Under the pieces are notes generated by a model. That model had not been told where the DNA came from. It saw only the letters and a list, made by a program, of their open reading frames with translations, and searched no databases. The position numbers and the translations under genes are program-made. A DNA stretch of 64,000 nt from Bixzunavirus cane17 (Duplodnaviria; Heunggongvirae; Uroviricota; Caudoviricetes): IMG/VR virus record IMGVR_UViG_2974759174_000001; one strand, 5' to 3'. Positions 3,441 to 58,203 of the stretch are shown here, in pieces. Each line of letters opens with the position of its first letter. The stretch's first letter is position 1.

Positions 3441-3513
3441 GGGAGTGAAATCCCCTGTAGATGCGCTATAGTAAGGTAGTCTGAACACGCACACACTCAC
3501 CAAGGGAGACCAT
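3441..3513 (+). promoter_or_regulatory. conserved intergenic promoter-leader element (variant box GGGAGTGAAATCCCC, -10 TATAGT, CA-rich leader, AAGGGAG RBS)
   Basis: member of the repeated element family; see findings. Confidence 0.5.
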
Positions 3514-4206
3514 ATGCCCAGACTCATCACGGACAAGCGCGGCGCCAAGCTGGCCCGCGAGATCCTCACCCAGATCGAGGCCGAAGTGGAGGCCCGACTG
3601 GTACGCGAGTCGTCTACTTCTACTGAAGGCCCGGTGTGGAACCAGAGCGTGTGGGTCATGGTCGACCTCGACCTGCTTCCTCCGCGTTCATCGGTCGAGC
3701 TGATCGATCCCGCCACGATCACCGCCCGTCGATCGCTTGACTATGTTCCGAACGGGCACGCCGTTCGGTCAGGCTTGGCGGCGGCGATCGACAGCGGGGT
3801 CGGTCCCTCCTGCGGCACGGCCCTGTGCTTTGCCGGGCATGCCTCGATCATGGCAGGCGACCGGTACCTCATCCCGGTGAGACCGGAGGTCGCCCAGAAG
3901 CTCAGGACCGGAAGGGTCCGGCGCAGTCTGCGGCACTTCGTGAACAACTATCGGCACAAGCTGCCTCCCTCCCTCTCCGACATCCTCGGTTCGACAGTGA
4001 TCACGCCGGACAACGAGGTGACGACGGTCGAGATCCGCGCGCGGGAACTGCTGGGCCTCACTGCAGGAGAGGCAGAAACGCTTTTCGCTGGCGGAAACAC
4101 CCTCTCCGACCTGCGCAGGTACGTGGAGATGATGGAGCGGGGCCAGAACCTGAGCACCGGCAAGCCGAAGCGAGGCGTGCGGCGGCGCACCTCGGGGGAG
4201 GACTGA
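3514..4206 (+). CDS. hypothetical protein (230 aa)
   Basis: long ORF with RBS AAGGGAG; high GC3. Confidence 0.7.
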   Translation: MPRLITDKRGAKLAREILTQIEAEVEARLVRESSTSTEGPVWNQSVWVMVDLDLLPPRSSVELIDPATITARRSLDYVPNGHAVRSGLAAAIDSGVGPSCGTALCFAGHASIMAGDRYLIPVRPEVAQKLRTGRVRRSLRHFVNNYRHKLPPSLSDILGSTVITPDNEVTTVEIRARELLGLTAGEAETLFAGGNTLSDLRRYVEMMERGQNLSTGKPKRGVRRRTSGED

Positions 4207-4373
4207 TGAACTGGCCAGCGGTCCTCGGTGTCCTGGCGGGAGCAGCGGGCATTGTCGCCTTCGTCTTGTTCATTATCAATCCGTTCCTGGAGGAACCCAA
4301 GAAGCGGCGGATGATGATCGTCGCGTTCGGCATCGGCGTGGTCTGTGCGGCGCTGGCCGCAGGCCTGTCATGA
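4206..4373 (+). CDS. small membrane protein (55 aa)
   Basis: TGATG overlap; MNWPAVLGVLAGAAGIVAFVLFII TM helix. Confidence 0.45.
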   Translation: MNWPAVLGVLAGAAGIVAFVLFIINPFLEEPKKRRMMIVAFGIGVVCAALAAGLS

Positions 4374-4389
4374 GGGGAGAGAGGGACGC

Positions 4390-4998
4390 ATGACCAACAC
4401 CATCACCCTGCACCAGGTCTCTGACGACGAGGTGGTGCGTCCGGCCACCGTCGACATCCGGCATATCCGCACCACCCGGTGGAACAAGCAGACCAAGCTC
4501 ACCGAGGTCGGGCTGGAGGCCGGGCTGCACAGCACCGCGCCCATCTGCGTGCTCGAACATCCTCGGCGCATCTCTCTGCTGATCAGGCGGGCCCACCAGG
4601 CCCAGGTTGTCAAGGAGAGCCTGAACAGGGTTGCGCGGACGCAGCCACAGTCAGGCGATACGCTGTTGCAGCGCAAGCTCAAGGAGGCCGTGACACAGGC
4701 TCAGGCGCCTCGTGACGACGCCGATCTGGCCAGCTATGAGGCCTACGCCCAGGACGTGGCCAACCAGCGCGCCGAGCGATCCGCGCGCAAGGCTGCCGCC
4801 GAGGAGCAGTGGAAGACCGATGTGAGCCAGCAGATCCGGGGCGTCATCGAGCGACTGGAGACCCTGCAGGCTGCGCGTCAGGTCGACGCCAACAACAACC
4901 GGGTCATCATGAGCACCATGAGCAACCTGCTGGCCGAGGTCAAGCAGACCAACGGCCTGCTCGCCGAGGTTGTCAAGCACCTGGCCAAGGAGGCCTGA
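4390..4998 (+). CDS. hypothetical coiled-coil protein (202 aa)
   Basis: RBS GGGAGAGAGGGACG before ATG 4390; C-terminal heptad-like region. Confidence 0.65.
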   Translation: MTNTITLHQVSDDEVVRPATVDIRHIRTTRWNKQTKLTEVGLEAGLHSTAPICVLEHPRRISLLIRRAHQAQVVKESLNRVARTQPQSGDTLLQRKLKEAVTQAQAPRDDADLASYEAYAQDVANQRAERSARKAAAEEQWKTDVSQQIRGVIERLETLQAARQVDANNNRVIMSTMSNLLAEVKQTNGLLAEVVKHLAKEA

Positions 4999-5318
4999 TG
5001 AACACCGCAGAGCGGTTTGTCACTCTCGACCGCGACGATGACGGCAAGAGTGTCCGCTTCGAGATGATCGAAGACGAGGACGGCGACGTCTTCTGGGCCT
5101 ACGGCCACGTGCCCAGCGAGTCCATGGTGGCCGAGGTCAACCGCTGGCTGACCCACTGCGAGCTGGAAGCCGACGTCCTGGCGCCCTCGTCGGCGACCGT
5201 CGACCACGTGTGGGCCCGGTTCACCGACAACGAGCGCTTCAGCCTGGAAGAGCCGATCGGCAAGGAGACCGACACCGAGCTGTTCCCCGTGACCCGTCTC
5301 TACTGGTTCGTGGCCTAG
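4998..5318 (+). CDS. hypothetical protein (106 aa)
   Basis: TGATG overlap; balanced composition. Confidence 0.6.
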   Translation: MNTAERFVTLDRDDDGKSVRFEMIEDEDGDVFWAYGHVPSESMVAEVNRWLTHCELEADVLAPSSATVDHVWARFTDNERFSLEEPIGKETDTELFPVTRLYWFVA

Positions 5319-5320
5319 CG

Positions 5321-5425
5321 ATGTCGCAGCCGAGCGAGACCCGCATCCCGCAGGTCCTCGGCTACGCCTGGGGCGAGGTGGACTCGGTGCTGCGCGGCTT
5401 CATCGACACCCTCAAGGGCGACTGA
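5321..5425 (+). CDS. possible small protein (34 aa)
   Basis: ATG right after upstream stop; weak RBS. Confidence 0.3.
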   Translation: MSQPSETRIPQVLGYAWGEVDSVLRGFIDTLKGD

Positions 5426-5460
5426 ATCCGACACGCCGATCGAGGAACAAGCCCGGGCGA

Positions 5461-5479
5461 CTGTAGGTTCACTACAGTA
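5461..5479. promoter_or_regulatory. inverted repeat ACTGTAG-gttca-CTACAGT abutting the start codon of the next gene (operator-like)
   Basis: perfect 7-bp arms seen directly. Confidence 0.4.
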
Positions 5480-5763
5480 TGACTATGAGCCTGGACTTGA
5501 ATTTTGTAGATCTGCCGGAGAAGAAGATGGGTGGCGAGCGCAACCGGTCGCGCATCCGTCTGGAGACTCTGGCCGACGCGCTTCGTGCGCAGCGCGGCAA
5601 GTGGGCCGAATGGCCCTGGCCGTCCTCGTCGCCGTATCAGACCGGCAATCACATCAACCAGGGCCGCTATGCCTCGCTGCCCAGCGAGGAGTTCCAGGCC
5701 ACGGTGCGCAACCGGGTGCTCTACGTACGTGCCCGCACCGAGGAAGAAATGAGGCAGCTGTGA
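5479..5763 (+). CDS. hypothetical protein (94 aa)
   Basis: ORF with high GC3 preceded by palindrome. Confidence 0.6.
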   Translation: MTMSLDLNFVDLPEKKMGGERNRSRIRLETLADALRAQRGKWAEWPWPSSSPYQTGNHINQGRYASLPSEEFQATVRNRVLYVRARTEEEMRQL

Positions 5764-5987
5764 TCAGACTCCTGCTCCGAGGCATCACCGTCGGCCTGTT
5801 CGGCATCGCGCTGGCCTTCAGCCTGCTCGCCATCTTTGCCGAGCTGACCGACTACAACCTGCCGCGTCCCGGCGGCTCGTCGTCCGGCATTGGCATCACG
5901 CGTAACGGCATCGGCATCGACATGGGCGGCGGCATCATGCTCGACCCGTCGTCCGGTCGGCTCACACCCGGGATTCCGCTGCCATGA
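5760..5987 (+). CDS. membrane protein (75 aa) with Gly-rich tail
   Basis: GTGA overlap; TM helix ITVGLFGIALAFSLLAIFA. Confidence 0.5.
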   Translation: MIRLLLRGITVGLFGIALAFSLLAIFAELTDYNLPRPGGSSSGIGITRNGIGIDMGGGIMLDPSSGRLTPGIPLP

Positions 5988-6012
5988 CCGCGTTGATCGC
6001 AGGCGGTGAGTG

Positions 6013-6156
6013 ATGGCCATGACCAATCCCCTGGTCGTCCCGATCCAGCGCGACTGCCCGCGCGCGGCCTGCGCGGCCATGGGCATCCAGTGCAAGGACC
6101 GCCGCGAGGGCCGGACGTGCGAGTCCGGCTACCAGCCGCCCGAGGAGGAGCCGTAG
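6013..6156 (+). CDS. possible small Cys-containing protein (47 aa)
   Basis: ATG after GTGAG; the competing 101-aa frame is Arg/Pro-rich and looks like an off-frame artefact. Confidence 0.25.
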   Translation: MAMTNPLVVPIQRDCPRAACAAMGIQCKDRREGRTCESGYQPPEEEP

Positions 6157-6290
6157 CCATGGACGCCGACGACCTCTGTCGCTTCCGCCGCCGCCGGACC
6201 GGGCATCACACCGCCTGGCAGTCCAGGCCGCACCGGGTCGACCCTCACCCGCAGACCGACGACAACACGCCTCAAGGCGAAATAAAACAG

Positions 6291-6378
6291 CCTGTAGTAC
6301 CGTTACAGTAGATGTAGTAAACTCCCAGGTATGGGAACACAAATCGCCCCACACACGCACACAGAAAGGCACACACAC
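6291..6378 (+). promoter_or_regulatory. AT-rich promoter-like region (CCTGTAGTACCGTTACAGTAGATGTAG, -10 TACAGT) with CA-rich leader
   Basis: local AT richness; the ACACACGCACACAGAAAGG leader resembles the element family. Confidence 0.4.
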
Positions 6379-6672
6379 ATGAAGAGCGCATTGGTGGCCG
6401 TCCTGGCCGCACCCGCACTGACCATCACCGGTCTGTTCTTCGTCGCACCGGCCAGCGCGAGCCCCAACTGGCAGAACGACGTCCTCTGTTCGTCCAACAT
6501 CGCCTACCGCAACGCACACAAGGCGCTGTGCACGGACATCTCCATCGGCAGCCACGGCGGCGGTGGTGGCTACCAGGAGCCCGAGGCAGAACCTGCCTCA
6601 GGCGGTGACACTGGCGGCGGTGACACTGGGGGCAGCACGGGCTCCGGAGGTGGAGGTGGGGACAGCGAGTAG
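6379..6672 (+). CDS. secreted Gly-rich protein (97 aa) with N-terminal signal peptide
   Basis: MKSALVAVLAAPALTITGLFFVAPASA then SPNW; start at ATG 6379 with RBS GAAAGG. Confidence 0.55.
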   Translation: MKSALVAVLAAPALTITGLFFVAPASASPNWQNDVLCSSNIAYRNAHKALCTDISIGSHGGGGGYQEPEAEPASGGDTGGGDTGGSTGSGGGGGDSE

Positions 6673-6751
6673 TTTGCTGTCCGCCCAGGGAGGCTGATTC
6701 CCTCCCTGGGTCCACATTCCCACCCACCTGCACAGAAGGAAACACGCCCAC

Positions 6752-7108
6752 ATGAAGAAAACCTTTGCTGCACTGGCCCTGGCCGCAGCCGCTGTCCTAT
6801 CTTCCGCCCCGATCGCCACCGCCGACGAGTACGTCCCGGGCTGCGAGCGCATCCGCTGGGGCTTCTTGGCCTCGGGCTACCGCACCATCTGCGACGGCCC
6901 GCGTCAGCCCGACGGCTCGTGGCTGCGCTGGCGCCGCGAGTGGACCCCGGCGGGCTACGTGCCCGGCTGGTGCTCGCGCTACTCCTGCTCGTCGGGCTAC
7001 TACCGCAGCGAGACCACCCAGCGCCAAGAGACCTACCCGGTCACCGACGCCACCGTGCTGCCCGGCGAACCTGGTTGGATTCCCCCTGGCACCATCCGCA
7101 TTCTCTGA
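6752..7108 (+). CDS. secreted Cys-containing protein (118 aa) with signal peptide
   Basis: MKKTFAALALAAAAVLSSAPIATA then DEY; RBS AGAAGGAAA. Confidence 0.65.
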   Translation: MKKTFAALALAAAAVLSSAPIATADEYVPGCERIRWGFLASGYRTICDGPRQPDGSWLRWRREWTPAGYVPGWCSRYSCSSGYYRSETTQRQETYPVTDATVLPGEPGWIPPGTIRIL

Positions 7109-7118
7109 GAGGCCGCAC

Positions 7119-7226
7119 ATGAACCGCCACGACCCCGAGCAGGACGAGCAGCAGTCCTCCGACGCCACCGCCTTCACCATCCCGCGCTGGGAGACCTTCA
7201 GCGTCGGCGAGGAGGACAGCAACTAG
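7119..7226 (+). CDS. small acidic protein (35 aa)
   Basis: RBS GAGAGG 6 nt upstream. Confidence 0.4.
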   Translation: MNRHDPEQDEQQSSDATAFTIPRWETFSVGEEDSN

Positions 7227-7426
7227 TGAGCTGGCATCTGACCCGCAGGGGCATCAAGCGCGTGCGCACCGGCTGGACCATCGTCGGCGAGGACCCGACT
7301 CCTGACGGTTACCGCGACCACCTGCTCTACAAGGGCATCTCGCGCTGGCAGGCCTTCAAGGCGGTGCGGGCCGCTCTCAAGGAGGACATGATCGTCACCA
7401 TCACCCCCTATCTCGTCACCAAGTAG
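7226..7426 (+). CDS. hypothetical protein (66 aa)
   Basis: GTG overlapping upstream TAG. Confidence 0.55.
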   Translation: MSWHLTRRGIKRVRTGWTIVGEDPTPDGYRDHLLYKGISRWQAFKAVRAALKEDMIVTITPYLVTK

Positions 7427-7458
7427 CTCCACCCCATCTCGACAGGAAAGAGATCCCC

Positions 7459-9150: not shown

Positions 9151-9311
9151 TGCCCCACACCCCCGACTTTCGCGACCTCGTGATCGCCGACCTCTCCCAG
9201 TACCTGCGTGAGCGCTGTGGCATGAGCGAGGAGACGGCACGGAAGAAGGCCGACCAGCTGCTCGACCAGGCCGTGAAAGATTTTGAGAAATCTTTGGAAT
9301 CCGGGGAATGA
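9150..9311 (+). CDS. small protein (53 aa)
   Basis: RBS GGAGGA, TGATG coupling. Confidence 0.45.
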   Translation: MPHTPDFRDLVIADLSQYLRERCGMSEETARKKADQLLDQAVKDFEKSLESGE

Positions 9312-9375
9312 TCTCTCATACCGCTCCGTTATACTAGGTGTAAGACACAGACACACTCACACAAGGAGCCCCCAA
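9304..9375 (+). promoter_or_regulatory. conserved promoter-leader element (GGGGAATGA box, -10 TATACT, GTGTAAGAC, ACACTCAC leader, AGGAGCC RBS)
   Basis: family member; the box includes the stop codon of the upstream gene. Confidence 0.55.
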
Positions 9376-9627: not shown

Positions 9628-9699
9628 GGGAATGAATCCCCATAACGCGCCGTTATACTGAGTACACCACCACCACCACTCACCCACACAGGAGCCGAA
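9628..9699 (+). promoter_or_regulatory. conserved promoter-leader element (GGGAATGAATCCCC, TATACT)
   Basis: family member. Confidence 0.55.
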
Positions 9700-10942: not shown

Positions 10943-11012
10943 GGGAATGATCTGCGGGCATATCCCGTTGATATGAGTGTAAGCGAAACACTCACTCACC
11001 CAGGAGCCCGAA
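10943..11012 (+). promoter_or_regulatory. conserved promoter-leader element (GGGAATGATCTGCGGGCATATCCC, TTGATAT, GTGTAAGCGAAACACTCACTCAC)
   Basis: near-identical to the copy at 11461. Confidence 0.55.
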
Positions 11013-11460: not shown

Positions 11461-11532
11461 GGGGAATGATCCTGAGGCATATCCCGTTGATATAAGTGTA
11501 AGCGAAACACTCACTCACTCAAGGAGCTCACG
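11461..11532 (+). promoter_or_regulatory. conserved promoter-leader element
   Basis: family member. Confidence 0.55.
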
Positions 11533-12086: not shown

Positions 12087-12262
12087 TGGCCCTCAAGAAC
12101 CTCCAGCACTACAGTCCGGAGGAGTTACGCCTGATTCTCGACGTGCTCGTCGACGTCCACGAGTACGGTCAGCAGAACGACCGTGAGGAGATCATGGGAT
12201 ACCTGACCCAGCGCAAGCGCACCGTGCGCAACCGGCTCAAGGCCGTCAAGAATCGGGAATGA
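12086..12262 (+). CDS. hypothetical protein (58 aa)
   Basis: TGATG overlap; its stop lies inside the next GGGAATGA box. Confidence 0.55.
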   Translation: MALKNLQHYSPEELRLILDVLVDVHEYGQQNDREEIMGYLTQRKRTVRNRLKAVKNRE

Positions 12263-12326
12263 ATACCCATACCACTGCGTTATATTCAGTGTAAGACACA
12301 CTCAGTCACCCAGAAAGGCCAGAGCC
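12255..12326 (+). promoter_or_regulatory. conserved promoter-leader element (GGGAATGAATACCC, -10 TATATT)
   Basis: family member. Confidence 0.55.
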
Positions 12327-12728: not shown

Positions 12729-12989
12729 ATGAAGGTCACCGTCACTGCCGAATGGCAGGAGTTTCATCGCAACGACGTCCACGGTCATAGGATCGAAGTC
12801 GCCGGATACACCGCCGTCGTCGAGCAGGTGTCCAAGGCTGACTGGAAGAACGGTGACTACTCGCCGGTCTGGCAGTTCACCGTACTGCAAGACCATCTGC
12901 GCATCGTCGAGGTCGGACAGCGTGACGCCCTGCAGGACGCCAAGAGCGCCGCCGAGGCCGTCATTCAGGCTGACATCCAGAGGAATTAA
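12729..12989 (+). CDS. hypothetical protein (86 aa)
   Basis: RBS CAGGAG. Confidence 0.65.
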   Translation: MKVTVTAEWQEFHRNDVHGHRIEVAGYTAVVEQVSKADWKNGDYSPVWQFTVLQDHLRIVEVGQRDALQDAKSAAEAVIQADIQRN

Positions 12990-13052
12990 CTGAGATACCC
13001 ACGTGTTATACTCAGTGCACACCACCACACAGACACCCACAGGAGAATGACA
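12982..13052 (+). promoter_or_regulatory. promoter-leader element variant (GGAATTAA box, TATACT)
   Basis: family member. Confidence 0.45.
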
Positions 13053-14471: not shown

Positions 14472-14538
14472 GGGAATGGATGCGGCTATAGTCGCGTTAC
14501 GCATCACGTATCGCCCACCACACACGCAGGAGCACCCC
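14472..14538 (+). promoter_or_regulatory. promoter-leader element variant (GGGAATGG, -10 TATAGT)
   Basis: family member. Confidence 0.5.
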
Positions 14539-15894: not shown

Positions 15895-15962
15895 GGGAAT
15901 GAACCCAGGTAAAGTGTGGTTGTAGAAGGTGTAAGGCACTCACACACACAAGGAGCCCCGAA
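15895..15962 (+). promoter_or_regulatory. conserved promoter-leader element (GGGGAATGAACCC, TAAAGT)
   Basis: family member. Confidence 0.5.
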
Positions 15963-18216: not shown

Positions 18217-18260
18217 GAGGAATGAGTCGCCCTACAGCAAGGTTATAGTGGGTGTAGCAC
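18217..18260 (+). promoter_or_regulatory. orphan copy of the promoter element (GAGGAATGAGTCGCCC, -10 TATAGT) with no CA-rich leader, RBS or ORF behind it
   Basis: family box plus TANNNT; downstream 450 bp is non-coding. Confidence 0.5.
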
Positions 18261-18700
18261 CGAACATCGACAACTCAAGAGAGCATCTGGACCACCGAGG
18301 CACCGTGCAAGTACCCCTGTGAAACATCCCCTGACGGCTAACGACCACGACCTCACCCCAGAGACCGGACCGAAAGGCCCCATCGCGATATACCCCAGCC
18401 ACGTGTGGCGGGGCCGGTGGGAACCAGCCCCAGAGAAGCCGGAGACGGGTGTGAGGCGACCCCTGAACGAAGGGATGTGGAGGGCGAAATCCGCCGCGAG
18501 AGAAGGTGAGGCCAAGAGCCATCGAGCGCGCCGACGGGCGCGGGAAGGATGGACAAGCGCCGCGTCAAACAGACAGGTCTAGTACCGATGGGAACCGGGG
18601 AGTGCGCACGAACCGGGGAGACTAGGGAACGAAACCGGCTGGCCAGATGCCCCCTTGGGTTGTCGATGTCGGCACCCACTACCACCACCCACCGAAAGGA
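18260..18700 (+). ncRNA. candidate non-coding RNA: 440-bp purine-rich non-coding stretch downstream of the orphan promoter
   Basis: the only ORF here (18319-18582) has about 24% A at codon position 3 versus under 10% in flanking genes; GA-rich with repeated GAACCGGGGAG units. Confidence 0.35.
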
Positions 18701-19598: not shown

Positions 19599-19690
19599 CC
19601 TATAGCGGAATTAAAGTCGTAGAGTCTCGGTTGTACGGTTTGTACGACGCTCACCCAGAGCACCACCACCCACCCACACAAGGAGTACCT
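19599..19690 (+). promoter_or_regulatory. promoter-leader element variant (CCTATAGCGGAATTAA, -10 TAGAGT, CACCCACACAAGGAG leader)
   Basis: shares the 10-mer CCTATAGCGG with the copy at 22411. Confidence 0.45.
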
Positions 19691-22053: not shown

Positions 22054-22428
22054 ATGACCGCCAGCGGCATCGCGTTTCCCGCGACGCACCCGATTCACGA
22101 GAAGGTGCGTGCGTACCGCGAGGAACGCGAGCGTCAAGAACGGGAGCTGGACGAGGCCACCGGAGGGTATGACGCCGACAAGGCCGACTACTTCGCCCGG
22201 GGAGGCCAGCCGCTGATCACGTTCAAGGACTGGCTCAAGAGCACCAAGGCCTCCGACGTCGAGCAGGCCGAGCGCGCCGGACCGGTCACCAACGAGACTT
22301 ACATCCCCGACGTTGACGCCTGGGGGTCCGATGACGACATTCCCGAATGGGCCAAGATGGCGCGTCGTCGTCGTTTCGCCATCCGCATCCGGTCTGCCGA
22401 AACAAATCGCCCTATAGCGGTGTTATAG
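22054..22428 (+). CDS. hypothetical protein (124 aa)
   Basis: ORF with basic C-terminus overlapping the next promoter element. Confidence 0.65.
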   Translation: MTASGIAFPATHPIHEKVRAYREERERQERELDEATGGYDADKADYFARGGQPLITFKDWLKSTKASDVEQAERAGPVTNETYIPDVDAWGSDDDIPEWAKMARRRRFAIRIRSAETNRPIAVL

Positions 22429-22465
22429 TAGAAGTCACTCACTCACTCACTCAAAGGAGCCCGCC
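22411..22465 (+). promoter_or_regulatory. promoter-leader element variant (CCTATAGCGG, -10 TATAGT, CACTCACTCACTCA leader, AAAGGAGCC RBS)
   Basis: family member. Confidence 0.45.
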
Positions 22466-39595: not shown

Positions 39596-39631
39596 TTCCT
39601 CCTCGAATGGATAGGAGCCTTCGAGGAGGAA
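39596..39631 (+). promoter_or_regulatory. RBS-sequestering hairpin TTCCTCCTCGAA-tggataggagcc-TTCGAGGAGGAA (family B) upstream of ATG 39634
   Basis: 12-bp perfect stem; the 3' arm is the SD. Confidence 0.5.
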
Positions 39632-48993: not shown

Positions 48994-49932
48994 GTGAGTG
49001 TATGCGCCAACCCCGAGTGCGGCAAAGAGTTCGAGCAGCCCAACAAGTACCGCACCACCAAGACATGCTCCAAGGAGTGCCGATACGCGGTCTCGGCCAG
49101 CACCACCAAGGCCTCCAGTGGCCGGTGGGAGACCAAGGTCTGCCCATGTGGAGTCGAGTTCCAGAGCGCCGTCAATAAGCCCAAGACGTATCACGACTGG
49201 GACTGCATGATGAAGCATCGGCAGGAAGACGCTCGGGCGTCTCGGACGTGCGAGAATCCTGAATGCGGCAAGGAGTTCACTTACTTCAAGCGCCAGAATC
49301 AGCGGACCTGCTCGCCGGAGTGCCGCAACAAAGTCACCGCCATGAAGCGTGAGAACAACTATCCCGAGTGCCAGACGTGCGGTGTCTCCACCGGCTCCTA
49401 CAACCGGATCTACTGCGACGAGCACCGCCCTAATCGTCCGGGCCGCAAGCCCGCACCTCGGATCACTGCGACCTGCCTGTGCTGTGGTGAGGAGTTCACT
49501 CGCCCGGAGAACTACCCCGGCAAGATGAAGTACTGCTCGAACGCCTGCAGTCATCGTCAGGTGAAGAAAGTCCGGGACAAGTTCATCGCCGACCTCCCCG
49601 AGGGTGCGATCGTCTTCCACAGCATGTGGGAGGTGCGCTTCGTCGCTGCCTGTGAGCGGTTCGACATCCCCTGGCGCTCCTACGACGGTCCCGACATCGA
49701 GACCTCTCAAGGCGTCTACCGTCCTGACTTCATCATCGGCAAGCCGGGCGAGGAGCGCGTGGTCGACGTCAAGGGATGGCTGCGGCCTGAGTCCGAGGTC
49801 AAGTGCCGCGAGGCCGGGGTGCATCTGGTGACCAAGCAGGAGCTGCTGCGGCTGGAGTCCGGTGACAGCTTGGACGCGCATCGCGCATTGCTATGGAACT
49901 CGGGAATGAATGCCCATACCGGTCTGTTATGA
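48994..49932 (+). CDS. zinc-ribbon-repeat protein with C-terminal PD-(D/E)XK nuclease-like domain (313 aa)
   Basis: four repeats of C.NPECGKEF ... RTCS.ECR; C-terminal PDFIIGKPGEERVVDVKGW (D ... E.K); GTG 48994 with AGGGAG RBS. Confidence 0.7.
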   Translation: MSVCANPECGKEFEQPNKYRTTKTCSKECRYAVSASTTKASSGRWETKVCPCGVEFQSAVNKPKTYHDWDCMMKHRQEDARASRTCENPECGKEFTYFKRQNQRTCSPECRNKVTAMKRENNYPECQTCGVSTGSYNRIYCDEHRPNRPGRKPAPRITATCLCCGEEFTRPENYPGKMKYCSNACSHRQVKKVRDKFIADLPEGAIVFHSMWEVRFVAACERFDIPWRSYDGPDIETSQGVYRPDFIIGKPGEERVVDVKGWLRPESEVKCREAGVHLVTKQELLRLESGDSLDAHRALLWNSGMNAHTGLL

Positions 49933-49971
49933 TGAGTACACGACACGCACTCACACACGAAAGGCAGACCG
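49902..49971 (+). promoter_or_regulatory. conserved promoter-leader element (GGGAATGAATGCCC, -10 TATGAT, CACTCACACACGAAAGG leader), partly inside the upstream coding sequence
   Basis: family member. Confidence 0.5.
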
Positions 49972-52859: not shown

Positions 52860-52926
52860 GGGAATGAATCCCCATATCCCTGTGTTATACTAGGTGCACA
52901 TTCACCCACACACAGAGGAGTCCGGC
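52860..52926 (+). promoter_or_regulatory. conserved promoter-leader element (GGGAATGAATCCCC, TATACT, CACCCACACACAGAGGAG)
   Basis: near-consensus copy. Confidence 0.55.
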
Positions 52927-53145: not shown

Positions 53146-53160
53146 GGAGGTGACCATGAG

Positions 53161-53325
53161 ATGGAGCGCTACCTGTTCGCCGGAAGCGAGTTGACCCGCG
53201 ACGAACTGGAGAAGGCTTTGGCTCCAGAGCTGGACGAACTTAACGCCGCCCAGGGCACCAAGATCGGCTTCGACGAATACCTGGCCGCAGCTCTGAACAC
53301 CGGCACCATCACCGAGATCCTGTAA
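53161..53325 (+). CDS. possible small protein (54 aa)
   Basis: GAGGAGG upstream; not in track. Confidence 0.4.
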   Translation: MERYLFAGSELTRDELEKALAPELDELNAAQGTKIGFDEYLAAALNTGTITEIL

Positions 53326-53337
53326 GGCGGGGCGGGA

Positions 53338-53359
53338 CCTCCTCTAATAGGTGAGGAGG
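53338..53359 (+). promoter_or_regulatory. RBS-sequestering hairpin CCTCCTCTA-atagg-TGAGGAGG (family B) upstream of ATG 53369
   Basis: stem plus conserved loop. Confidence 0.55.
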
Positions 53360-53368
53360 CCTGTCCTG

Positions 53369-55252
53369 ATGCGAATCACCACTGCTCGCGAGCAGTTCGA
53401 AATGCTCTTGCCCTGGCGAGAGGCCGACGTCGCTATTCGCCCAGACGCCGTTCCGCCAGGAGTTCCTGGTGCTGGCAATCAGCCTCAGATCCCGGCCCGA
53501 GGGAAGAACATCGGCGAAAACACGCCATGGTCGCAGGTCGACTGGCGTACCGCCGACGATTACGGGGCGCATCGGTCCACCAGTCGACCACCGATGTCTT
53601 CCGACATCCCGCACCCGACCGAGCTGCTCGATCCCCGCAAGGCCGGTCATCGTGCACGCTTGGAGCGTGCGACGGCCAGCGAAGACCCGGTGAACGATCC
53701 ATGGAACGTCCTCGGCGGCACACCCTGGACATTCGAAGACCTGGTCCAGAACCACATGAGCCACCACCAGAACATGAATCCCGAGCAGGAGTTTCAGGGG
53801 CGTGTCTGGTACCCAGCGGCCCATGACTCCACCAAGGACGTGGCCCAGCGGACCATCGGTGACCACGAGCGCACGGTGGCCGTCGATTCGGCGCTGTCGC
53901 CGGTCAAGGACTGGGACCTCAACAACGAGCAGATGATCCACTACCTGACCAACTACGAGGGCCAGGAGGGATACAAGTCTCCGACGAAGAACTGGAAGGG
54001 ATTCAGCCGCGACGCGCCCGAGCGCGACCCTGAGAACCGGTTCCGGATCAAGGCGCCCGACGATCAGAACGAGAAGGCTCATCGGCTGATGGACGCCCCG
54101 GCAGGATCGCTGGGGCGAGAGGACTACCTCAACATCCTGTCCGGCCCCAAGACCAGCTCCTTCTTCAACAACATCCTCGACGAGACCCCGCTGCGCGAAC
54201 CGCGCTCAGGCGTGCCGGACGACGAGGGGTTCTACGAGCACCAGATCAATCCGAACACCGGCAAGCCGGACTGGCGCTACGGCGATCAGGACGTCACCGT
54301 GGACACCCATCACGCCCGGGTTCAGACGATCCCGCACGGCGCCGATCTCAGCCAGGTGGGGTACGTGGTGCCCGACCACTTCGGCGAGAAGCTCACGGTC
54401 AACAAGAAGGCCTACCACCCCGGTTACGACCTGCACGCTCGTGCGTCGGCGGAAGCAACCCGTCGGCTCAACGCCATGCAGGAGGACGACCTGCGGACTT
54501 TGAAGCCCAAGCAGGCTCAGGCCGGTCCGTGGGTCAAGTTCAAGAAGGACGTCGTCGACGCCGGTGTGTCGCCGAACATGCCCGAGCCCGGCCAGATGCC
54601 CAAGTCTTTCAATCCCGACAAGCCGACCCAGCTGAGGGGCCCGTATCCGAACACTCCGGACCAGCCTCGTTATCAGCGTGACGTTGGCGACTTCTGGGTA
54701 CATCCAGACCGTCCGGACCCGGACCTGCGCCGGGCTCCGAACTGGAACAACCGCACGCCCAGCTGGCGTAGTGAGAAGAATCGTCGACAATCGTCGGTGC
54801 GAGTGGGCTTCGTCGAGGAATGGATCGCTCAGCACTTCCCGCATCGGGCTCATAGTCCCGAAGACGGCAGCGTCCAGCAGGTGGTTCAGGCCAGCTTCAG
54901 CGACGACTTCGAACCGATCGCGATTCATCCCGAGCCGCACAAGATCCACCCGGACTGGGGCGGCGGAGAGCCAGACATCGAACATCGTGGCTACTGGCAG
55001 CACGGCCCGTCCGAGATGTCGGTGATGAGCGACTGGGGTGACGAGAACGGGAACATCAACTACTCGCTCATCCACCAGGGCGACACGATCGACGTCGCGC
55101 AGGACCCGCACGAGTTCCTCTCGCGGTCTCCGCAGGAGCTGGCTGACATGTTCGGCCTGAATCCGGAGACGCACGACGATCGCGGTCACTACGGGTCTCG
55201 GCTGACTGCTGAGACTCTCTCCTTCGCCGATGAGGTGCTCAAGAATGTGTAA
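53369..55252 (+). CDS. hypothetical large protein (627 aa) with conserved N-terminal RITTAREQFEMLLPW module
   Basis: long ORF; N-terminus paralogous to the next gene. Confidence 0.8.
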   Translation: MRITTAREQFEMLLPWREADVAIRPDAVPPGVPGAGNQPQIPARGKNIGENTPWSQVDWRTADDYGAHRSTSRPPMSSDIPHPTELLDPRKAGHRARLERATASEDPVNDPWNVLGGTPWTFEDLVQNHMSHHQNMNPEQEFQGRVWYPAAHDSTKDVAQRTIGDHERTVAVDSALSPVKDWDLNNEQMIHYLTNYEGQEGYKSPTKNWKGFSRDAPERDPENRFRIKAPDDQNEKAHRLMDAPAGSLGREDYLNILSGPKTSSFFNNILDETPLREPRSGVPDDEGFYEHQINPNTGKPDWRYGDQDVTVDTHHARVQTIPHGADLSQVGYVVPDHFGEKLTVNKKAYHPGYDLHARASAEATRRLNAMQEDDLRTLKPKQAQAGPWVKFKKDVVDAGVSPNMPEPGQMPKSFNPDKPTQLRGPYPNTPDQPRYQRDVGDFWVHPDRPDPDLRRAPNWNNRTPSWRSEKNRRQSSVRVGFVEEWIAQHFPHRAHSPEDGSVQQVVQASFSDDFEPIAIHPEPHKIHPDWGGGEPDIEHRGYWQHGPSEMSVMSDWGDENGNINYSLIHQGDTIDVAQDPHEFLSRSPQELADMFGLNPETHDDRGHYGSRLTAETLSFADEVLKNV

Positions 55253-56546
55253 CCGCCGTCGCATCATCACCGCCCGCGAGCAGTTCGAGATGCTGCAACC
55301 CTGGCACCGCGAAGCTGCTGCGCACCCGGAGGCTCACCCGGATCTGCACCACAGCTTCGCCACGCACGGCTCGGTGCACACCACCGGTGGCCGCGTGCTG
55401 CCGCAGCGCACCGCCAACTCGCCGACCTTCCAGGATCCGGCGGGATGGACCTTCCATAAGTCCTTCGAGCCCAGCCAGCACGCATTGCAGGGCGCACGGG
55501 CCTACGCCTCGCTGGTCGGCCTGCCGGACCCGCACTCCGGTCATGTGGACTACCTCAACGCCCGCCGGACGCCCGACAGCGTGGCCAAAGTGGCCAAGGC
55601 CTACGACAGCCTGCCGGACATGGACCGCAGTGCCGTCCCGCACTTCCAGGCGATGGCCGACGAGGTGGCCAAGCAGCACGACTTCATGACCAATCGTCTG
55701 GGCATCAAGACCCAGTCGGTGGACTACGACCCGTACACCGACGTGCACGAGATGCTGCACGACATCAACCACAACAAGACCCTCAAGGTGATGGGCACCC
55801 ATGTCACCGGCGGGCATCCCTTGTTCAGCAACAAGCAGAACGACATGTTCCGCGCTGTGCACGACTTCTTCGGTCATGCCGCGACCGGGCGCAGCTTTGA
55901 CCGACATGGCGAGCAGGCTGCATACCTGGCGCACGCGCAGATGTTCTCTCCGCACGCGCTGCCCGCGCTGGCCAGCGAGACCAAGGGTCAGAACAGCTCG
56001 CTGATCTACAACGGCCAGTTCGGTCCGCAGAAGGTCGGCATCATGTCGCCGGAGCACTACACCGACGGCCTGGCGCTGCATCGACCGCGTGTGTCATCCT
56101 ATAGAACAGCTGTAGGAGATCCACAGTGGCAGAACGAGGTAGAGAAGGCCGTGCGCGAGACGGGCGGGTACACCTTCCGCGATCGTCCTGGTGACGGCCC
56201 GCAGAGCGGATTCATGGTGGCCCTGCCGGGCGCCGAGAAGATCGTTCCGCGTGACGAGTTCTCCGGGGAGGATGCCGCCCGCTACCGCCAGGAGTGGGAC
56301 GACAGGATCCGGGAGGATCCCGATCGCTATCAGGGTGGCTGGGACGACGTCGAGTCGGGCAACTTCTACCACGACGTGGCCAAGCACTACGACGACCTCT
56401 GGGAGTCGGGTGTGGCCGGACGCGCCGAGAACGACGAAGATGCCCAGCACGGTATCTACCATCTCGACTCCGACACCACGTTCAGCCCTCTGGAGGTCAA
56501 CTACGGCGGCACGCCGGGATACATGATGGCCAGGAGGGAAGACTGA
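55245..56546 (+). CDS. hypothetical protein (433 aa) with paralogous N-terminal RIITAREQFEMLQPW module, His-rich
   Basis: 8-nt overlap with the upstream gene. Confidence 0.75.
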   Translation: MCNRRRIITAREQFEMLQPWHREAAAHPEAHPDLHHSFATHGSVHTTGGRVLPQRTANSPTFQDPAGWTFHKSFEPSQHALQGARAYASLVGLPDPHSGHVDYLNARRTPDSVAKVAKAYDSLPDMDRSAVPHFQAMADEVAKQHDFMTNRLGIKTQSVDYDPYTDVHEMLHDINHNKTLKVMGTHVTGGHPLFSNKQNDMFRAVHDFFGHAATGRSFDRHGEQAAYLAHAQMFSPHALPALASETKGQNSSLIYNGQFGPQKVGIMSPEHYTDGLALHRPRVSSYRTAVGDPQWQNEVEKAVRETGGYTFRDRPGDGPQSGFMVALPGAEKIVPRDEFSGEDAARYRQEWDDRIREDPDRYQGGWDDVESGNFYHDVAKHYDDLWESGVAGRAENDEDAQHGIYHLDSDTTFSPLEVNYGGTPGYMMARRED

Positions 56547-56758
56547 TGGCGCTGGACATGGAGAAGCTGCGCGCGTTCGCCAGCGAGGTGGGTTACTGGC
56601 CTGCCACCGACGATGACGATGAGCTGGAGGCCCGGCGCCAGGCGCACGCTGCCGACACCGGCTCGCTGGAGCGCACTCACGCCAAGTACGGCCATCTGCG
56701 TGAACACAAGCGTCAGGTCGAGGCTGAGGCTGCCGCGCGGCGCGATCTCAAGGACTGA
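56546..56758 (+). CDS. hypothetical protein (70 aa)
   Basis: RBS CAGGAGGGAAG; TGATG coupling. Confidence 0.6.
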   Translation: MALDMEKLRAFASEVGYWPATDDDDELEARRQAHAADTGSLERTHAKYGHLREHKRQVEAEAAARRDLKD

Positions 56759-56760
56759 CC

Positions 56761-57132
56761 ATGACGATGCCCACCGAGGAAAGCGGCAAGCCGGGTCTGT
56801 TCGACCGGTTTGCCGACCTCATCAACCAGTTCACCTCGCGCGCGTGGTTCTTCCTCGCTTGCGTTTTGCTCGTGCTGATATGGGCACCCAGCTTTCTGGT
56901 GGTGGGCAACATCGACACCTGGCAGCTGCTGATCAACACCCCGACGACGGTGATCACGTTTCTGCTGGTGGCCCTGCAGGCCAACACCTCCAAGCGCTCC
57001 GACGCGTCGGAGCAGGCCAAGCTCAACGCGATCGCCGACGGACTGGCCGACCTCATGGAGCACTTCGAGGTCACTGAGCACGCCCACGAACTACGAGAGG
57101 CCGTGGGACTGGAAGAGAAGGAGTCCACCTGA
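56761..57132 (+). CDS. membrane protein (123 aa, two TM helices), holin-like candidate
   Basis: WFFLACVLLVLIWAPSFLVVG and TTVITFLLVALQ. Confidence 0.65.
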   Translation: MTMPTEESGKPGLFDRFADLINQFTSRAWFFLACVLLVLIWAPSFLVVGNIDTWQLLINTPTTVITFLLVALQANTSKRSDASEQAKLNAIADGLADLMEHFEVTEHAHELREAVGLEEKEST

Positions 57133-57362
57133 TGCCGAACGAGACTGATACCGTCCGGGGAATCCAGGGCCACCCGGAGCTTCCGGGTCCGCCCAACACC
57201 CCGCCGACGACCCAGGTCCCGCCGGAGTACTGGCGCAAGAACCCCGAGGGCGACCCTGACCACGGCCAGTACCAGACCGTGGAGCGTGGCCGCGACGACG
57301 TCGTCAAGGTGCCGGTCGAGCCGGGCTGGGACAACAACGTGGTCATCGGCGGATTCGAGTAG
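57132..57362 (+). CDS. small protein (76 aa) with VRGIQGHPELPGPP motif
   Basis: paralogue of next gene. Confidence 0.6.
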   Translation: MPNETDTVRGIQGHPELPGPPNTPPTTQVPPEYWRKNPEGDPDHGQYQTVERGRDDVVKVPVEPGWDNNVVIGGFE

Positions 57363-57364
57363 CC

Positions 57365-57586
57365 ATGCCCGAGATCGATCACGTGCGGGGCATCGAGGGA
57401 CATCCGGAGCTCCCCGGCCCGCCGTACGACCCGCCGACCCACACCTGGGCGGTGCCGGTCAACGACCTGGTGCGGACCCCGAAGGGTGACCCCGACGGTA
57501 AGCGCAAGCAGTACATCGAGATCCGTGGACCGCAGCTGGAGTTCATCGAGGCGCGCGACGACGCGCCCGAGGACGACGGAAACTGA
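57365..57586 (+). CDS. small protein (73 aa) with VRGIEGHPELPGPP motif
   Basis: tandem paralogue. Confidence 0.6.
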   Translation: MPEIDHVRGIEGHPELPGPPYDPPTHTWAVPVNDLVRTPKGDPDGKRKQYIEIRGPQLEFIEARDDAPEDDGN

Positions 57587-57848
57587 CGATCCTCCCCGAC
57601 GGGGCTACACTGTTTTTGCAGCACTCCTTTGCGAGTGCAAAGTCTTCTCATGTGGGTGAGAAGTGGTGGAGGGCAAAGGGACTCAATTCCCCGTCAGCCC
57701 CCAGAGGATCTGTGCTGGCTAGGGCGTGGCTGGCACAGGTCCTCTTACTTTTTGTACCGTTCGACACCAGCGGTTTCCGCTTCCTTGCCAATCTCCTGCA
57801 AACAAACAACAATGAGTTATAGACGACCTACAGGAGACTGACCTCACG

Positions 57849-58115
57849 ATGGGAGGACCACGGGTGAACACCTATCTTGTCCGCCTGGCCGACCGCCACA
57901 CCGGCGAGGGCCAGCGGATTCTTGTCCAGGACCGTAACCCGAGCACCGACCCCGCGACGGCGCTCGATGACATGCAGCGCTGGGTGGACGCTCACAAGGA
58001 GAGCTTCGACCCGCCGCTGCAGATCGCCGATCCCATGGTGATCGACATCCATCTGCTCAAGATGAAGCGTCCGGCGCGGACGGTCCTGCCGACCGCGACC
58101 CGTGTTCCTCTGTGA
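57849..58115 (+). CDS. hypothetical protein (88 aa)
   Basis: RBS CAGGAGA. Confidence 0.6.
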   Translation: MGGPRVNTYLVRLADRHTGEGQRILVQDRNPSTDPATALDDMQRWVDAHKESFDPPLQIADPMVIDIHLLKMKRPARTVLPTATRVPL

Positions 58116-58134
58116 GCGCGATCACATAACGGAG

Positions 58135-58203
58135 CGGAATGATCCTCCACCGGGTGCGGTTGTAAGGAGTGTTCGACACTCACACAATCACCCAGGAGGA
58201 ATC
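58135..58203 (+). promoter_or_regulatory. promoter-leader element variant (CGGAATGATCC, GTTGTAAGGAG, ACACTCACACAATCACCCAGGAGG)
   Basis: family member. Confidence 0.45.

What the first reader, a model, noticed from the sequence alone, without database searches (positions are those of the whole stretch)
3441..58203. Family of about 16 conserved intergenic promoter-leader elements (GGGAATGAATCCCC box, TANNNT, GTGTAAG, CA-rich leader, AGGAGCC)
At least 16 intergenic regions share a 65-85 bp modular element, listed as features. Its parts, in order, are: (1) an imperfectly palindromic box GGGA-N5-7-TCCC, most often GGGAATGAATCCCC, centred about -33, which in several copies contains the stop codon of the upstream gene; (2) a TANNNT -10 hexamer (TATACT, TATAGT, TATATT, TATGAT) preceded by CGTT; (3) AGTGTAAG(A/C); (4) a CA-repeat leader ACACTCAC(T)CAC; (5) the RBS AGGAGCC(C) 5-8 nt before ATG. 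It resembles the start-associated sequences described in some mycobacteriophage clusters, but with its own box. This is a dedicated early-gene transcription and translation signal set. It is probably recognised by a phage or host factor at the box, and the CA-rich leaders probably enhance translation. Two near-identical copies at 10943 and 11461 suggest duplication of whole element-gene cassettes.
Basis: seen in the sequence. Interest (0 to 1): 0.8.

Follow-up and report, generated by a model that had tools for sequence, protein, structure and literature searches.

The report
Phage promoter family matching host SigH
A large mycobacteriophage carries about 16 copies of a stereotyped promoter-plus-leader element whose two invariant parts, GGAATG and GTT 17 bases apart, are exactly the recognition sequence of the host's stress sigma factor SigH, whereas sister phages of the same host use ordinary housekeeping-type promoters at the same places.

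Summary
The window is bases 1-64000 of Mycobacterium phage Cane17 (Bixzunavirus, cluster C1). The repeated element is real. GGAAT-N18-GTT occurs 13 times in the window (1.9 expected). Every copy is on the gene strand at exactly this spacing, mostly 66-73 nt before a start codon. It is the top spaced dyad of the 160-kb genome.

The conserved core is not a palindromic box with a TANNNT -10. It is GGAATG-N17-GTT, the published consensus of actinobacterial SigH/SigR promoters. T at the fifth position is SigH-type rather than SigE-type. A purine at the sixth position (11 of 13 copies) is the SigH preference.

Across six C1 genomes the eight core bases never change, while spacers and flanks do. Three Myrnavirus genomes and Rhodococcus phage E3 lack the motif and use TTGCN-N16-19-TAnnnT instead. 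No canonical sigma factor was found in the phage. The CA-rich, unstructured leader is real but is a separate, more widespread module. The near-identical copies at 10943 and 11461 precede unrelated genes.

Best reading (about 0.6): host SigH-type ECF promoters. No transcript mapping or sigH-mutant data exist, so this is untested. It is a known promoter class in an unreported phage context.

The parts
9305..9375 (+). Element 1: GGAATG-N17-GTT promoter, then rGTGTA, a CA-rich leader and AGGAG, before gene 27 (ATG 9376). The TGA stop of gene 26 lies inside GGAATGA.
9629..9699 (+). Element 2, before gene 28 (ATG 9700)
10944..11012 (+). Element 3, before gene 33 (ATG 11013). The -10 region is GTTGATAT, with no TANNNT at the fixed register.
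11463..11532 (+). Element 4, before gene 34 (ATG 11533). It is 90% identical to element 3 over 60 nt, but the downstream protein is unrelated.
12256..12326 (+). Element 5, before gene 37 (ATG 12327). The stop of gene 36 lies inside the box.
12982..13052 (+). Element 6 (GGAATT), before gene 39 (ATG 13053). The TAA stop of gene 38 lies inside the box. Its -35 box forms the 3' end of the 29-bp repeat that flanks the repressor cassette in Koguma.
14473..14538 (+). Element 7, before gene 44 (ATG 14539). The -10 region is GTTACGCA, with no TANNNT in any of the genomes examined.
15896..15962 (+). Element 8, before gene 49 (ATG 15963). The -10 region is GTTGTAGA.
18219..18318 (+). Element 9. The promoter core is intact, but the 100-nt downstream stretch has no CA tract or SD. 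The annotated GTG start of gene 55 is doubtful.
19607..19690 (+).
49903..49971 (+). Element 11, before gene 90 (ATG 49972). It lies inside the 3' end of the annotated HNH gene 89.
52861..52926 (+). Element 12, before gene 93 (ATG 52927)
58136..58203 (+). Element 13, before gene 103 (ATG 58204). The -10 region is GTTGTAAG.
3442..3513 (+). Degenerate relative: GGAGT-N18-GCTATAGT, before gene 9. Both ECF core halves are broken and a sigma-A-like TATAGT is kept.
6279..6330 (+).
22399..22465 (+). Degenerate relative: GAAAC-N18-GTTATAGT with a CACTCACTCACTCA leader, before gene 63

Best explanation
The elements are promoters of the extracytoplasmic-function (ECF) sigma class recognised by actinobacterial SigH/SigR. 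The -35 element is gGGAATG(a). Exactly 17 nt separate it from the -10 element (c)GTT. They are most likely read by Mycobacterium smegmatis RNA polymerase carrying host SigH, or a SigH paralogue.

Each promoter sits within 30 nt of the preceding stop codon, sometimes overlapping it.

Inferred, not shown: transcription starts about 7-10 nt after GTT, inside the conserved rGTGTA block. This would give a 30-40 nt 5' UTR that is about 78% C+A and nearly structure-free, which keeps the AGGAG Shine-Dalgarno accessible.

About half the copies also carry a TAnnnT hexamer overlapping GTT, so they could additionally be used by the housekeeping sigma A.

The promoter module and the CA-rich leader module are separable. 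The leader is shared with other genes and with sister phages, whereas the GGAAT...GTT core is specific to Bixzunavirus (cluster C1).

Shown: sequence family, spacing, position, orientation, purifying selection, match to the published consensus, lineage specificity, and absence of a recognisable phage sigma.
For: 1. **Enrichment.** 13 of 13 window copies and 15 of 15 + strand genome copies are at N18. Other spacings give 0-2. It is the top spaced dyad of the genome.
2. **Match to published consensus.**
   - M. tuberculosis SigH from ChIP-seq and 5'-RACE is GGAAYR-N17-GTT. 19 of 25 promoters have N17, and SigH prefers a purine at hexamer position 6 where SigE prefers a pyrimidine (PMC4803200).
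   - C. glutamicum SigH is gGGAAta / t/cGTTgaa, i.e. GGAAT-N18-19-GTT. SigE needs GGAAC (PMC10012870).
   - S. coelicolor SigR is GGAATN18GTT (PMC2375139).
   - The phage has T at the fifth position in 15 of 15, G at position 6 in 13 of 15, G at -1 in 11 of 15, and C before GTT in 7 of 15.
3. **TANNNT is not universal.** It is absent in 7 of 15 copies. Element 14473 lacks it in every genome examined, and the Tonenili-like orthologue of element 10944 reads GTTGAA.
4. **Purifying selection.** Five further C1-type genomes carry 7-12 copies each at N18 only. Within orthologue groups there are 0 substitutions in the 8 core columns, against 1.2-1.9 per column in spacer and flanks. My Poisson estimate for this is about 6e-6. 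All orthologues located through a downstream anchor keep the core.
5. **Lineage contrast.** Myrna, Phabba, ScoobyDoobyDoo and Rhodococcus phage E3 have 0 copies in their syntenic left arms. They have 4-12 TTGCN-N16-19-TAnnnT sites instead. Cane17 has 3 (+) and 3 (-) such sites in the whole 160-kb genome and 1 (+) and 1 (-) in its first 40 kb, which is chance level. A gene shared at 96.5% nucleotide identity sits behind the GGAAT type in C1 and the TTGC type in ScoobyDoobyDoo.
6. **No competing signals.** There are no sigma-70-consensus promoters or terminators above chance in 9-20 kb.
7. **No phage sigma.** No Sigma70_r2 or r4 match was found among 176 phage proteins, apart from a sub-threshold r4_2 match in gp208. 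The gp208 recognition helix is invariant in phages with and without the motif.
8. **Leader.** C+A is 78%. Mean folding energy is -6.1 kcal/mol against -15.8 for random genomic 55-mers.
Against: - There are no transcription start-site, RNA-seq, sigH-mutant or in vitro transcription data. The library search found no study of cluster C transcription.
- SigH is normally held inactive by the anti-sigma factor RshA. A lytic phage that depends on it needs SigH to be released on infection, and that is unexplained.
- Positions 26-30 (ATAcT) are also under constraint, at 0.4 substitutions per column. In addition, 8 of 15 copies have TAnnnT with a G at -14, so sigma A use cannot be excluded.
- The conserved spacer TA (+14/+15) and the rGTGTA block are not features of known SigH promoters and remain unexplained.
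- The invariance of GGAAT and GTT in the primary set comes partly from how the set was collected.
- Phage sigma factors can be too divergent for Pfam to detect.
Confidence: 0.6

Rival explanations
1. These are sigma A promoters with a -35-independent, extended -10-like element (G-14, T-12, A-11, T-7, i.e. cGtTAnnnT). The GGAATGA box is the binding site of a phage or host activator. This is essentially the first reader's model.
For: - TAnnnT overlaps GTT in 8 of 15 copies, and positions 26-30 are constrained.
- Sister phages have sigma-A-type promoters with a very similar -10 context (GCTATACT, GCTATAGT) and a similar spacer motif.
- Degenerate family members with a poor -35 mostly keep TATAGT or TACAGT.
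- Several HTH proteins are encoded in the same region.
Against: - 7 of 15 copies lack A-11 and/or T-7 at the register. Orthologues keep GTT while losing the TA-rich extension.
- The box has no dyad symmetry.
- A full match to the SigH consensus in both halves, the spacing and the flanking preferences would be a coincidence.
- An activator site would not be expected to require the T at -13 that distinguishes GTT from the GCT of the sister phages.
Confidence: 0.2
2. The promoters are read by a phage-encoded specificity factor that Pfam does not recognise: a divergent sigma, or a sigma-region-4-like protein such as gp208 replacing sigma A region 4.
For: - gp208 has a sub-threshold Sigma70_r4_2 match (E 7e-5). 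Its homologues in Rhodococcus phages E3 and Finch are annotated as sigma factor or region 4.
- Many phages encode highly divergent sigma factors (established knowledge).
Against: - gp208 has no region 2.
- Its family occurs, with an invariant recognition helix, in Myrnavirus and Gordonia phages, and the Myrnavirus genomes examined lack the GGAAT motif.
- No other sigma-like protein was found among 176 proteins.
- A divergent sigma would not be expected to reproduce the canonical SigH consensus exactly.
Confidence: 0.1
3. The elements are mainly recombination or mobile-cassette junction sequences, meaning repeats that mediate gene shuffling. Their promoter resemblance is incidental.
For: - In Koguma a 1356-bp repressor cassette is flanked by a 29-bp exact repeat that ends in the -35 box, and by an inverted element copy. 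The same repeat was described for LRRHood (PMC3029335).
- The Tonenili-like genome carries a different family member before the same gene.
- Elements 3 and 4 are 90% identical yet precede unrelated genes.
Against: - Co-orientation with genes is strict, and the distance to start codons is fixed.
- Selection falls on exactly the sigma-contact positions while the rest drifts.
- Recombination at dispersed repeats is an expected by-product of having them.
Confidence: 0.05

Closest known systems
SigH/SigR-dependent promoters of actinobacteria (M. tuberculosis SigH GGAAYR-N17-GTT; C. glutamicum SigH gGGAAta...t/cGTTgaa; S. coelicolor SigR GGAATN18GTT)
   Same: - The -35 and -10 core letters match.
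- The dominant spacing matches.
- The base at position 5 (T) and the purine preference at position 6 match.
- The G preceding GGAA matches.
- Transcripts are leadered.
(searches compared)
   Different: - The elements are in a lytic phage genome, as about 15 near-consensus copies that drive small genes of unknown function rather than thiol, heat or proteostasis genes.
- They have extra conserved features: a TA in the spacer, an ATAnT extension of the -10, an rGTGTA block, and a CA-rich leader.
- SigH dependence is untested.
Sigma-A-type promoters of sister phages (Myrnavirus Myrna, Phabba and ScoobyDoobyDoo; Rhodococcus phage E3): TTGCN-N16-19-TAnnnT with a TTCTAG or CCTAYAG spacer
   Same: - They occupy the same genomic niche: left-arm small genes, immediately after the preceding stop codon.
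- The -10 neighbourhood is similar (G-14, TATACT or TATAGT), and so is the pyrimidine-TA-purine spacer motif.
- CA-rich leaders are present in many.

   Different: - The -35 is TTGC rather than GGAAT.
- They have GCT rather than GTT.
- Many Myrnavirus transcripts would be leaderless.
- The two classes are mutually exclusive between the genera.
Start-associated sequences (SAS/ESAS) of Cluster K mycobacteriophages (recalled from memory: 13-bp GGGATAGGAGCCC just upstream of start codons)
   Same: - Both are a repeated, gene-proximal, co-oriented intergenic motif family in a mycobacteriophage.
- Some copies share AGGAGCC(C).
   Different: - The recalled consensus is not enriched here: 22 matches against 25.8 expected at up to 3 mismatches.
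- AGGAGCC occurs in only 4 of 13 elements.
- The conserved part here lies 40-70 nt upstream and has promoter geometry.
CA-rich or unstructured translational leaders (established knowledge that C/A-rich, G-poor leaders reduce structure around the SD)
   Same: The leaders are 78% C+A. Mean folding energy is -6.1 kcal/mol, against -15.8 for random genomic segments.
   Different: No enhancer function has been tested. The same leaders occur without the promoter module.

Membership tests
SigH/SigR-type ECF sigma promoters | -35 hexamer GGAAYR, with T or C at position 5 and a purine at position 6 | tested here: met
   GGAAT in 15 of 15 copies. G at position 6 in 13 of 15; the other two have T. Consensus taken from PMC4803200.
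SigH/SigR-type ECF sigma promoters | -10 trimer GTT, often cGTT | tested here: met
   GTT in all copies, and in all orthologues located independently by a downstream anchor. C precedes GTT in 7 of 15.
SigH/SigR-type ECF sigma promoters | Restricted spacing: 17 (16-18) nt between the hexamer and the trimer | tested here: met
   All 15 copies have N17 between hexamer and trimer, which equals GGAAT-N18-GTT. There are 0-2 hits at other spacings and 0 at N14-17 or N19-22 in five relatives.
SigH/SigR-type ECF sigma promoters | Located upstream of genes and co-oriented with them | tested here: met
   15 on the + strand against 2 on the - strand. The distance to the annotated start is 66-73 nt in 13 of 15.
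SigH/SigR-type ECF sigma promoters | Transcription starts a few nt downstream of GTT | not testable with these tools
   No transcript data were found for any cluster C phage.
SigH/SigR-type ECF sigma promoters | Transcription depends on SigH (mutant, ChIP or in vitro) | not testable with these tools
   This needs an experiment.
Sigma A (housekeeping) mycobacterial promoters | -10 hexamer TAnnnT | tested here: inconclusive
   Present at the fixed register in 8 of 15 copies (7 of 13 in the window) and absent in the rest.
Sigma A (housekeeping) mycobacterial promoters | -35 resembling TTGACA or TTGCNN at 16-19 nt | tested here: not met
   The hexamer at that position is GAATGA or AATGAA. The sigma-70 scan of 9-20 kb finds 1 site against 1.1 expected. 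TTGCN-N16-19-TAnnnT is at chance level in Cane17.
Cluster K start-associated sequences | 13-bp consensus immediately upstream of start codons (recalled from memory as GGGATAGGAGCCC) | tested here: not met
   22 matches at up to 3 mismatches, against 25.8 expected. None lies in the elements.
Palindromic operator / dimeric-factor box | Dyad symmetry GGGA-N-TCCC conserved across copies | tested here: not met
   7 matches against 10.7 expected. Only 3 elements have it. Positions 8-12 are variable.
Known RNA leader families (Rfam) | Match to a curated covariance model | tested here: not met
   Only three tRNAs reach gathering score in the window.

The most novel reading that the evidence does not exclude
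Bixzunavirus (cluster C1) mycobacteriophages have rewired a whole class of their promoters from the housekeeping sigma A type, which their sister genus Myrnavirus keeps, to the host's stress sigma factor SigH. To use these promoters, the phage would actively free SigH from its anti-sigma factor RshA on infection. One possible route is the phage Ser/Thr kinase gp250, because PknB is reported to phosphorylate RshA and SigH (PMC7491931). Infection-induced thiol stress is another route. Phage development would then be coupled to, or would exploit, the host stress response.
Probability: 0.15. Interest if true: 0.85.

Novelty: new member of a known kind. Interest (0 to 1): 0.6.

Why it matters
If these are SigH promoters, more than 200 sequenced cluster C1 phages would drive a large block of genes through a host stress sigma factor instead of sigma A or a phage sigma. 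This group includes the transducing phages Bxz1 and I3.

This leads to simple, decisive tests:
- plating and transcript mapping on sigH and rshA mutants;
- measuring the effect of heat or oxidants on infection.

It would also provide:
- a natural set of about 15 near-consensus SigH promoters of graded sequence, useful for mycobacterial genetics;
- a clean example of promoter-class switching between sister phage genera on the same host.

For annotation, the motif marks transcription-unit boundaries and mosaic junctions in C1 genomes.

Tried and rejected
- **Palindromic box.** Not enriched.
- **AGTGTAAG as a loose motif.** Not enriched.
- **Scan of IMG/VR for GGGAATGA-N15-GTTATA.** It returned only scattered single chance hits and was uninformative.
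- **A phage-encoded ECF sigma.**
  - Pfam and NCBIfam scans of 176 proteins found none.
  - phmmer with E. coli RpoE against the six-frame translation found nothing, but that search is insensitive.
  - The NCBIfam list for the second protein set was truncated and so uninformative.
Rejected, because the family and its recognition helix are conserved in phages that lack the motif.
- **Duplication of element-gene cassettes.** Rejected.
- **A 5'-terminal hairpin (rGTGT pairing with ACAC of the leader).** There is only a weak tendency: -4.1 against -2.6 kcal/mol for shuffles, and the pairing is lost in some orthologues.
- **Rfam.** No family matched in the leaders.
- **SAS consensus.** Absent.
- **Literature.** Searches found no description of cluster C promoters or transcriptomes.

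Full report
**Identity of the window.** The window is bases 1-64000 of Mycobacterium phage Cane17 (NC_054716.1). This is a 160,330-bp myovirus of the genus Bixzunavirus, cluster C1, and the match is 100%. I fetched the whole genome with its annotation and rebuilt a table of 222 coding genes, all of which translate cleanly.

- The supposed palindrome GGGA-N4-8-TCCC is not enriched: 7 found, 10.7 expected.
- Reading the copies side by side shows two invariant parts, GGAAT and, exactly 18 nt later, GTT.
- GGAAT-N17-19-GTT gives 13 matches in the window, all N18 and all on the + strand. Expected 1.86; no shuffle in 100 reaches 13.
- In the whole genome there are 15 on the + strand and 2 on the - strand at N18, and 0-2 at N16, N17, N19 or N20.
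- An enumeration of every 5-mer/4-mer dyad with spacers of 8-24 ranks GGAAT-N18-GTTA first in the genome: 9 observed, 0.03 expected.
- A weight matrix shows these conserved blocks: gGGAATGA; a TA at +14/+15 in the spacer; GTT followed by r-T-A-n-T; and an rGTGTA block at +33 to +37.
- Scanning with that matrix, with or without the core columns, recovers degenerate relatives. In the window these are 3442, 6279 and 22399. Outside it they are 91891, 92102 and the minus-strand site 91207.
- GGAAT lies 66-73 nt before the annotated start in 13 of 15 copies. The element begins between 29 nt after and 7 nt before the previous stop codon, and three copies contain that stop.

**What the core is.**
- The M. 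tuberculosis SigH consensus, defined by ChIP-seq and 5'-RACE, is GGAAYR-N17-GTT. 19 of 25 promoters have N17. SigH prefers a purine at hexamer position 6, whereas SigE prefers a pyrimidine (PMC4803200).
- In Corynebacterium glutamicum, SigH-specific promoters are gGGAAta...t/cGTTgaa, i.e. GGAAT-N18-19-GTT. SigE requires GGAAC (PMC10012870).
- Streptomyces coelicolor SigR recognises GGAATN18GTT (PMC2375139).
- The phage elements read GGAATG-N17-GTT. T is at position 5 in 15 of 15, G at position 6 in 13 of 15, G before GGAA in 11 of 15, and C before GTT in 7 of 15.
- The match therefore covers both halves, the spacing and the flanking preferences. It points to SigH rather than SigE.

**Why not simply a sigma A promoter with TANNNT?**
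- The hexamer that overlaps GTT fits TAnnnT in only 8 of 15 copies (7 of 13 in the window).
- The others read TGATAT, TACGCA, TGTAGA, TGTACG or TGTAAG.
- The position where a sigma A -35 would lie reads GAATGA or AATGAA.
- A sigma-70 consensus scan of the densest region, 9-20 kb, finds 1 site against 1.1 expected. It finds no + strand terminators.
- The rival cannot be dismissed. Positions 26-30 are constrained (below), G of GTT would be the -14 G of an extended -10, and the degenerate members with poor -35 boxes mostly keep TATAGT or TACAGT.
- I therefore think about half the copies could be dual-use.

**Conservation.**
- I fetched the syntenic regions of five other C1-type genomes: an IMG/VR contig, a Tonenili-like contig, Dandelion, Bigswole and Koguma.
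- Each has 7-12 GGAAT-N18-GTT sites on the gene strand. Three have none at any spacing from N14 to N22 other than N18. The Tonenili-like contig has single hits at N20 and N21, the IMG/VR contig has none for GGAAT (one to three if GGAAC is allowed), and Koguma has one inverted copy.
- Orthologous sites located only through their downstream leader and gene sequence all keep the core. The 10 apparent exceptions are register shifts caused by indels in the leader.
- Within 15 orthologue groups the minimum substitution counts per column are:

| Region | Substitutions per column |
|---|---|
| 8 core columns | 0 |
| Spacer | 1.2 |
| Upstream flank | 1.9 |
| Leader | 1.8 |
| Positions 26-30 | 0.4 |

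- With about 1.5 substitutions per neutral column, zero in eight columns has a Poisson probability of about 6e-6 (my calculation).
- Two telling cases: the Tonenili-like orthologue of element 10944 reads GTTGAAAT, which is the corynebacterial SigH -10 extension with no TA-rich hexamer. Element 14473 lacks TAnnnT in every genome.

**Lineage contrast.**
- These syntenic left arms contain no GGAAT-N18-GTT at all: Myrna (50 kb), Phabba (40 kb) and ScoobyDoobyDoo (21 kb), all Myrnavirus and all isolated on the same host strain, and Rhodococcus phage E3 (50 kb).
- They carry 4-12 TTGCN-N16-19-TAnnnT sites, almost all on the gene strand. These have a characteristic TTCTAG or CCTAYAG spacer and, in Myrnavirus, are often leaderless.
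- Cane17 has only 3 (+) and 3 (-) such sites in the whole genome, and 1 (+) and 1 (-) in its first 40 kb. This is chance level.
- Gene 34 of Cane17 is 96.5% identical at nucleotide level to ScoobyDoobyDoo gene 25. The similarity begins at the start codon. Upstream, C1 has a GGAAT element and ScoobyDoobyDoo has a TTGCGC...TATAGT promoter. Promoter type is therefore a property of the phage lineage, not of the gene.
- The -10 neighbourhoods are alike (GCTATACT against GTTATACT). The C1 class looks derived from the sigma A class by replacement of the -35 and a C-to-T change at -13. These are exactly the two changes needed for SigH recognition. This last point is an inference.

**Who reads it?**
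- Pfam scans of 176 Cane17 proteins of 55-460 aa found no Sigma70_r2 and no region-4 match at or above Pfam's cut-off. NCBIfam found none in the first set.
- The only lead is gp208 (124781-125650, outside the window). It has a sub-threshold Sigma70_r4_2 match: E 7e-5, 22.8 bits against a cut-off of 25.7.
- Its homologues in Rhodococcus phages are annotated as sigma factor or region 4.
- The family is a core gene of the wider lineage. Its putative recognition helix (STxVQQYSD) is invariant in C1, Myrnavirus and Gordonia phages.
- It therefore cannot explain a C1-specific motif. It more probably serves a signal common to all of them.
- By elimination, and from the exact consensus match, host SigH or a paralogue is the most likely reader.
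- The open problem is how SigH would be active, because it is normally held by RshA.
- A speculative route: the phage encodes a Ser/Thr kinase (Pkinase, E 4.4e-9), and PknB is reported to phosphorylate RshA and SigH (PMC7491931).

**The leader.**
- Between -35 and -14 relative to the start codon, the leaders behind these promoters are 34% A, 44% C, 12% G and 10% T. The genome is 19, 33, 31 and 16%.
- 87% contain CAC[CT]CAC-type tracts. The region from -40 to +15 folds at -6.1 kcal/mol on average, against -11.7 for other intergenic leaders and -15.8 for random genomic 55-mers.
- However, the same tracts occur in 29% of other intergenic leaders and in Myrnavirus. The leader is therefore a separate module.
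- AGGAGCC is present in only 4 of 13 elements.
- No Rfam family matches.

**Duplications and mosaicism.**
- Elements 10943 and 11462 are 90% identical over 60 nt, but gp33 and gp34 share no similarity.
- No two element-driven proteins are paralogues.
- In the Tonenili-like genome the gp34 orthologue is preceded by a different family member.
- In Koguma the 1356-bp repressor cassette is flanked by a 29-bp exact repeat whose 3' end is the -35 box GGAATTA of the 12982-type element. The first copy is fused to an inverted 9305-type element.
- This is the repeat described for LRRHood (PMC3029335). The dispersed promoters therefore also act as recombination substrates, a secondary consequence.

**Novelty.**
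- The promoter class is well known. Its presence as a near-consensus regulon of about 15 sites in a lytic phage, and the genus-level switch between promoter classes, were not found in the held literature.
- That is absence from one library, not proof of novelty.
- Everything about function rests on sequence inference, and a start-site map or a sigH mutant would settle it.

Noticed in passing
window 23635, 24006, 37034, 50664, 53346 (variants near 39610 and 58350); outside the window at Cane17 139325 and 145822: A second recurrent signal sits before structural or late-type genes. It is a short hairpin whose loop reads (C/T)NAATAGGT and whose 3' arm is the Shine-Dalgarno GAGGAGG, for example CCTCCTC-GAATAGGT-GAGGAGG. 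Rhodococcus phage E3 has CATCAATAGG or ATCAATTGG before its structural genes. This could be a late promoter or a translational control element.
   Followed up: partly
Cane17 124781-125650 (L003:24781-25647), outside the window: gp208 has a sub-threshold sigma-70 region-4 HTH (Pfam Sigma70_r4_2, E 7e-5) and no region 2. It is 100% conserved in C1 phages. Its putative recognition helix is invariant in Myrnavirus, Gordonia-phage and metagenomic relatives. It is a candidate late-transcription factor for the whole lineage.
   Followed up: partly
L131 (Koguma) 4732-4760 and 6088-6116; corresponds to window about 12960-12988: The 29-bp direct repeat flanking the 1.35-kb immunity-repressor cassette, described for LRRHood by Pope et al. 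2011, ends in the -35 box GGAATTA of a family member. The first copy abuts an inverted copy of the 9305-type element. The cassette junctions therefore lie in these promoters.
   Followed up: yes
window 18219-18582: The promoter at 18219 is followed by 100 nt with no CA tract or Shine-Dalgarno before the annotated GTG start of gene 55. Dandelion annotates no gene there. The start may be mis-called, or the transcript may have a long leader or be a small RNA.
   Followed up: no
L126 (Myrna), L132 (ScoobyDoobyDoo), L133 (Phabba): Myrnavirus left-arm promoters are TTGCN-N16-19-TAnnnT with a TTCTAG spacer. In many, the ATG lies 6-7 nt after the -10, so the mRNAs would be leaderless. Some annotated starts appear inconsistent with this; for example Myrna gene 10 is annotated with a TTG start at 4578.
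   Followed up: partly
window +33 to +50 of each element, e.g. 10976-10999 and 58167-58185: The rGTGT at the predicted 5' end can pair with ACAC(TC) of the leader, for example GAGUGU-UCG-ACACUC. The tendency is weak (mean -4.1 against -2.6 kcal/mol for shuffles) and is lost in some orthologues.
   Followed up: partly
window 48994-49932: The annotated HNH endonuclease gene 89 runs through the -35 and -10 of the element at 49903 and ends only 39 nt before gene 90. A 220-nt AT-richer gap precedes the gene.
   Followed up: no
Cane17 154124-155197 (L004:4124-5194), outside the window: The phage encodes a Ser/Thr protein kinase (Pfam Pkinase, E 4.4e-9). PknB is reported to phosphorylate RshA and SigH in mycobacteria, so this is a speculative way for the phage to release SigH.
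   Followed up: no
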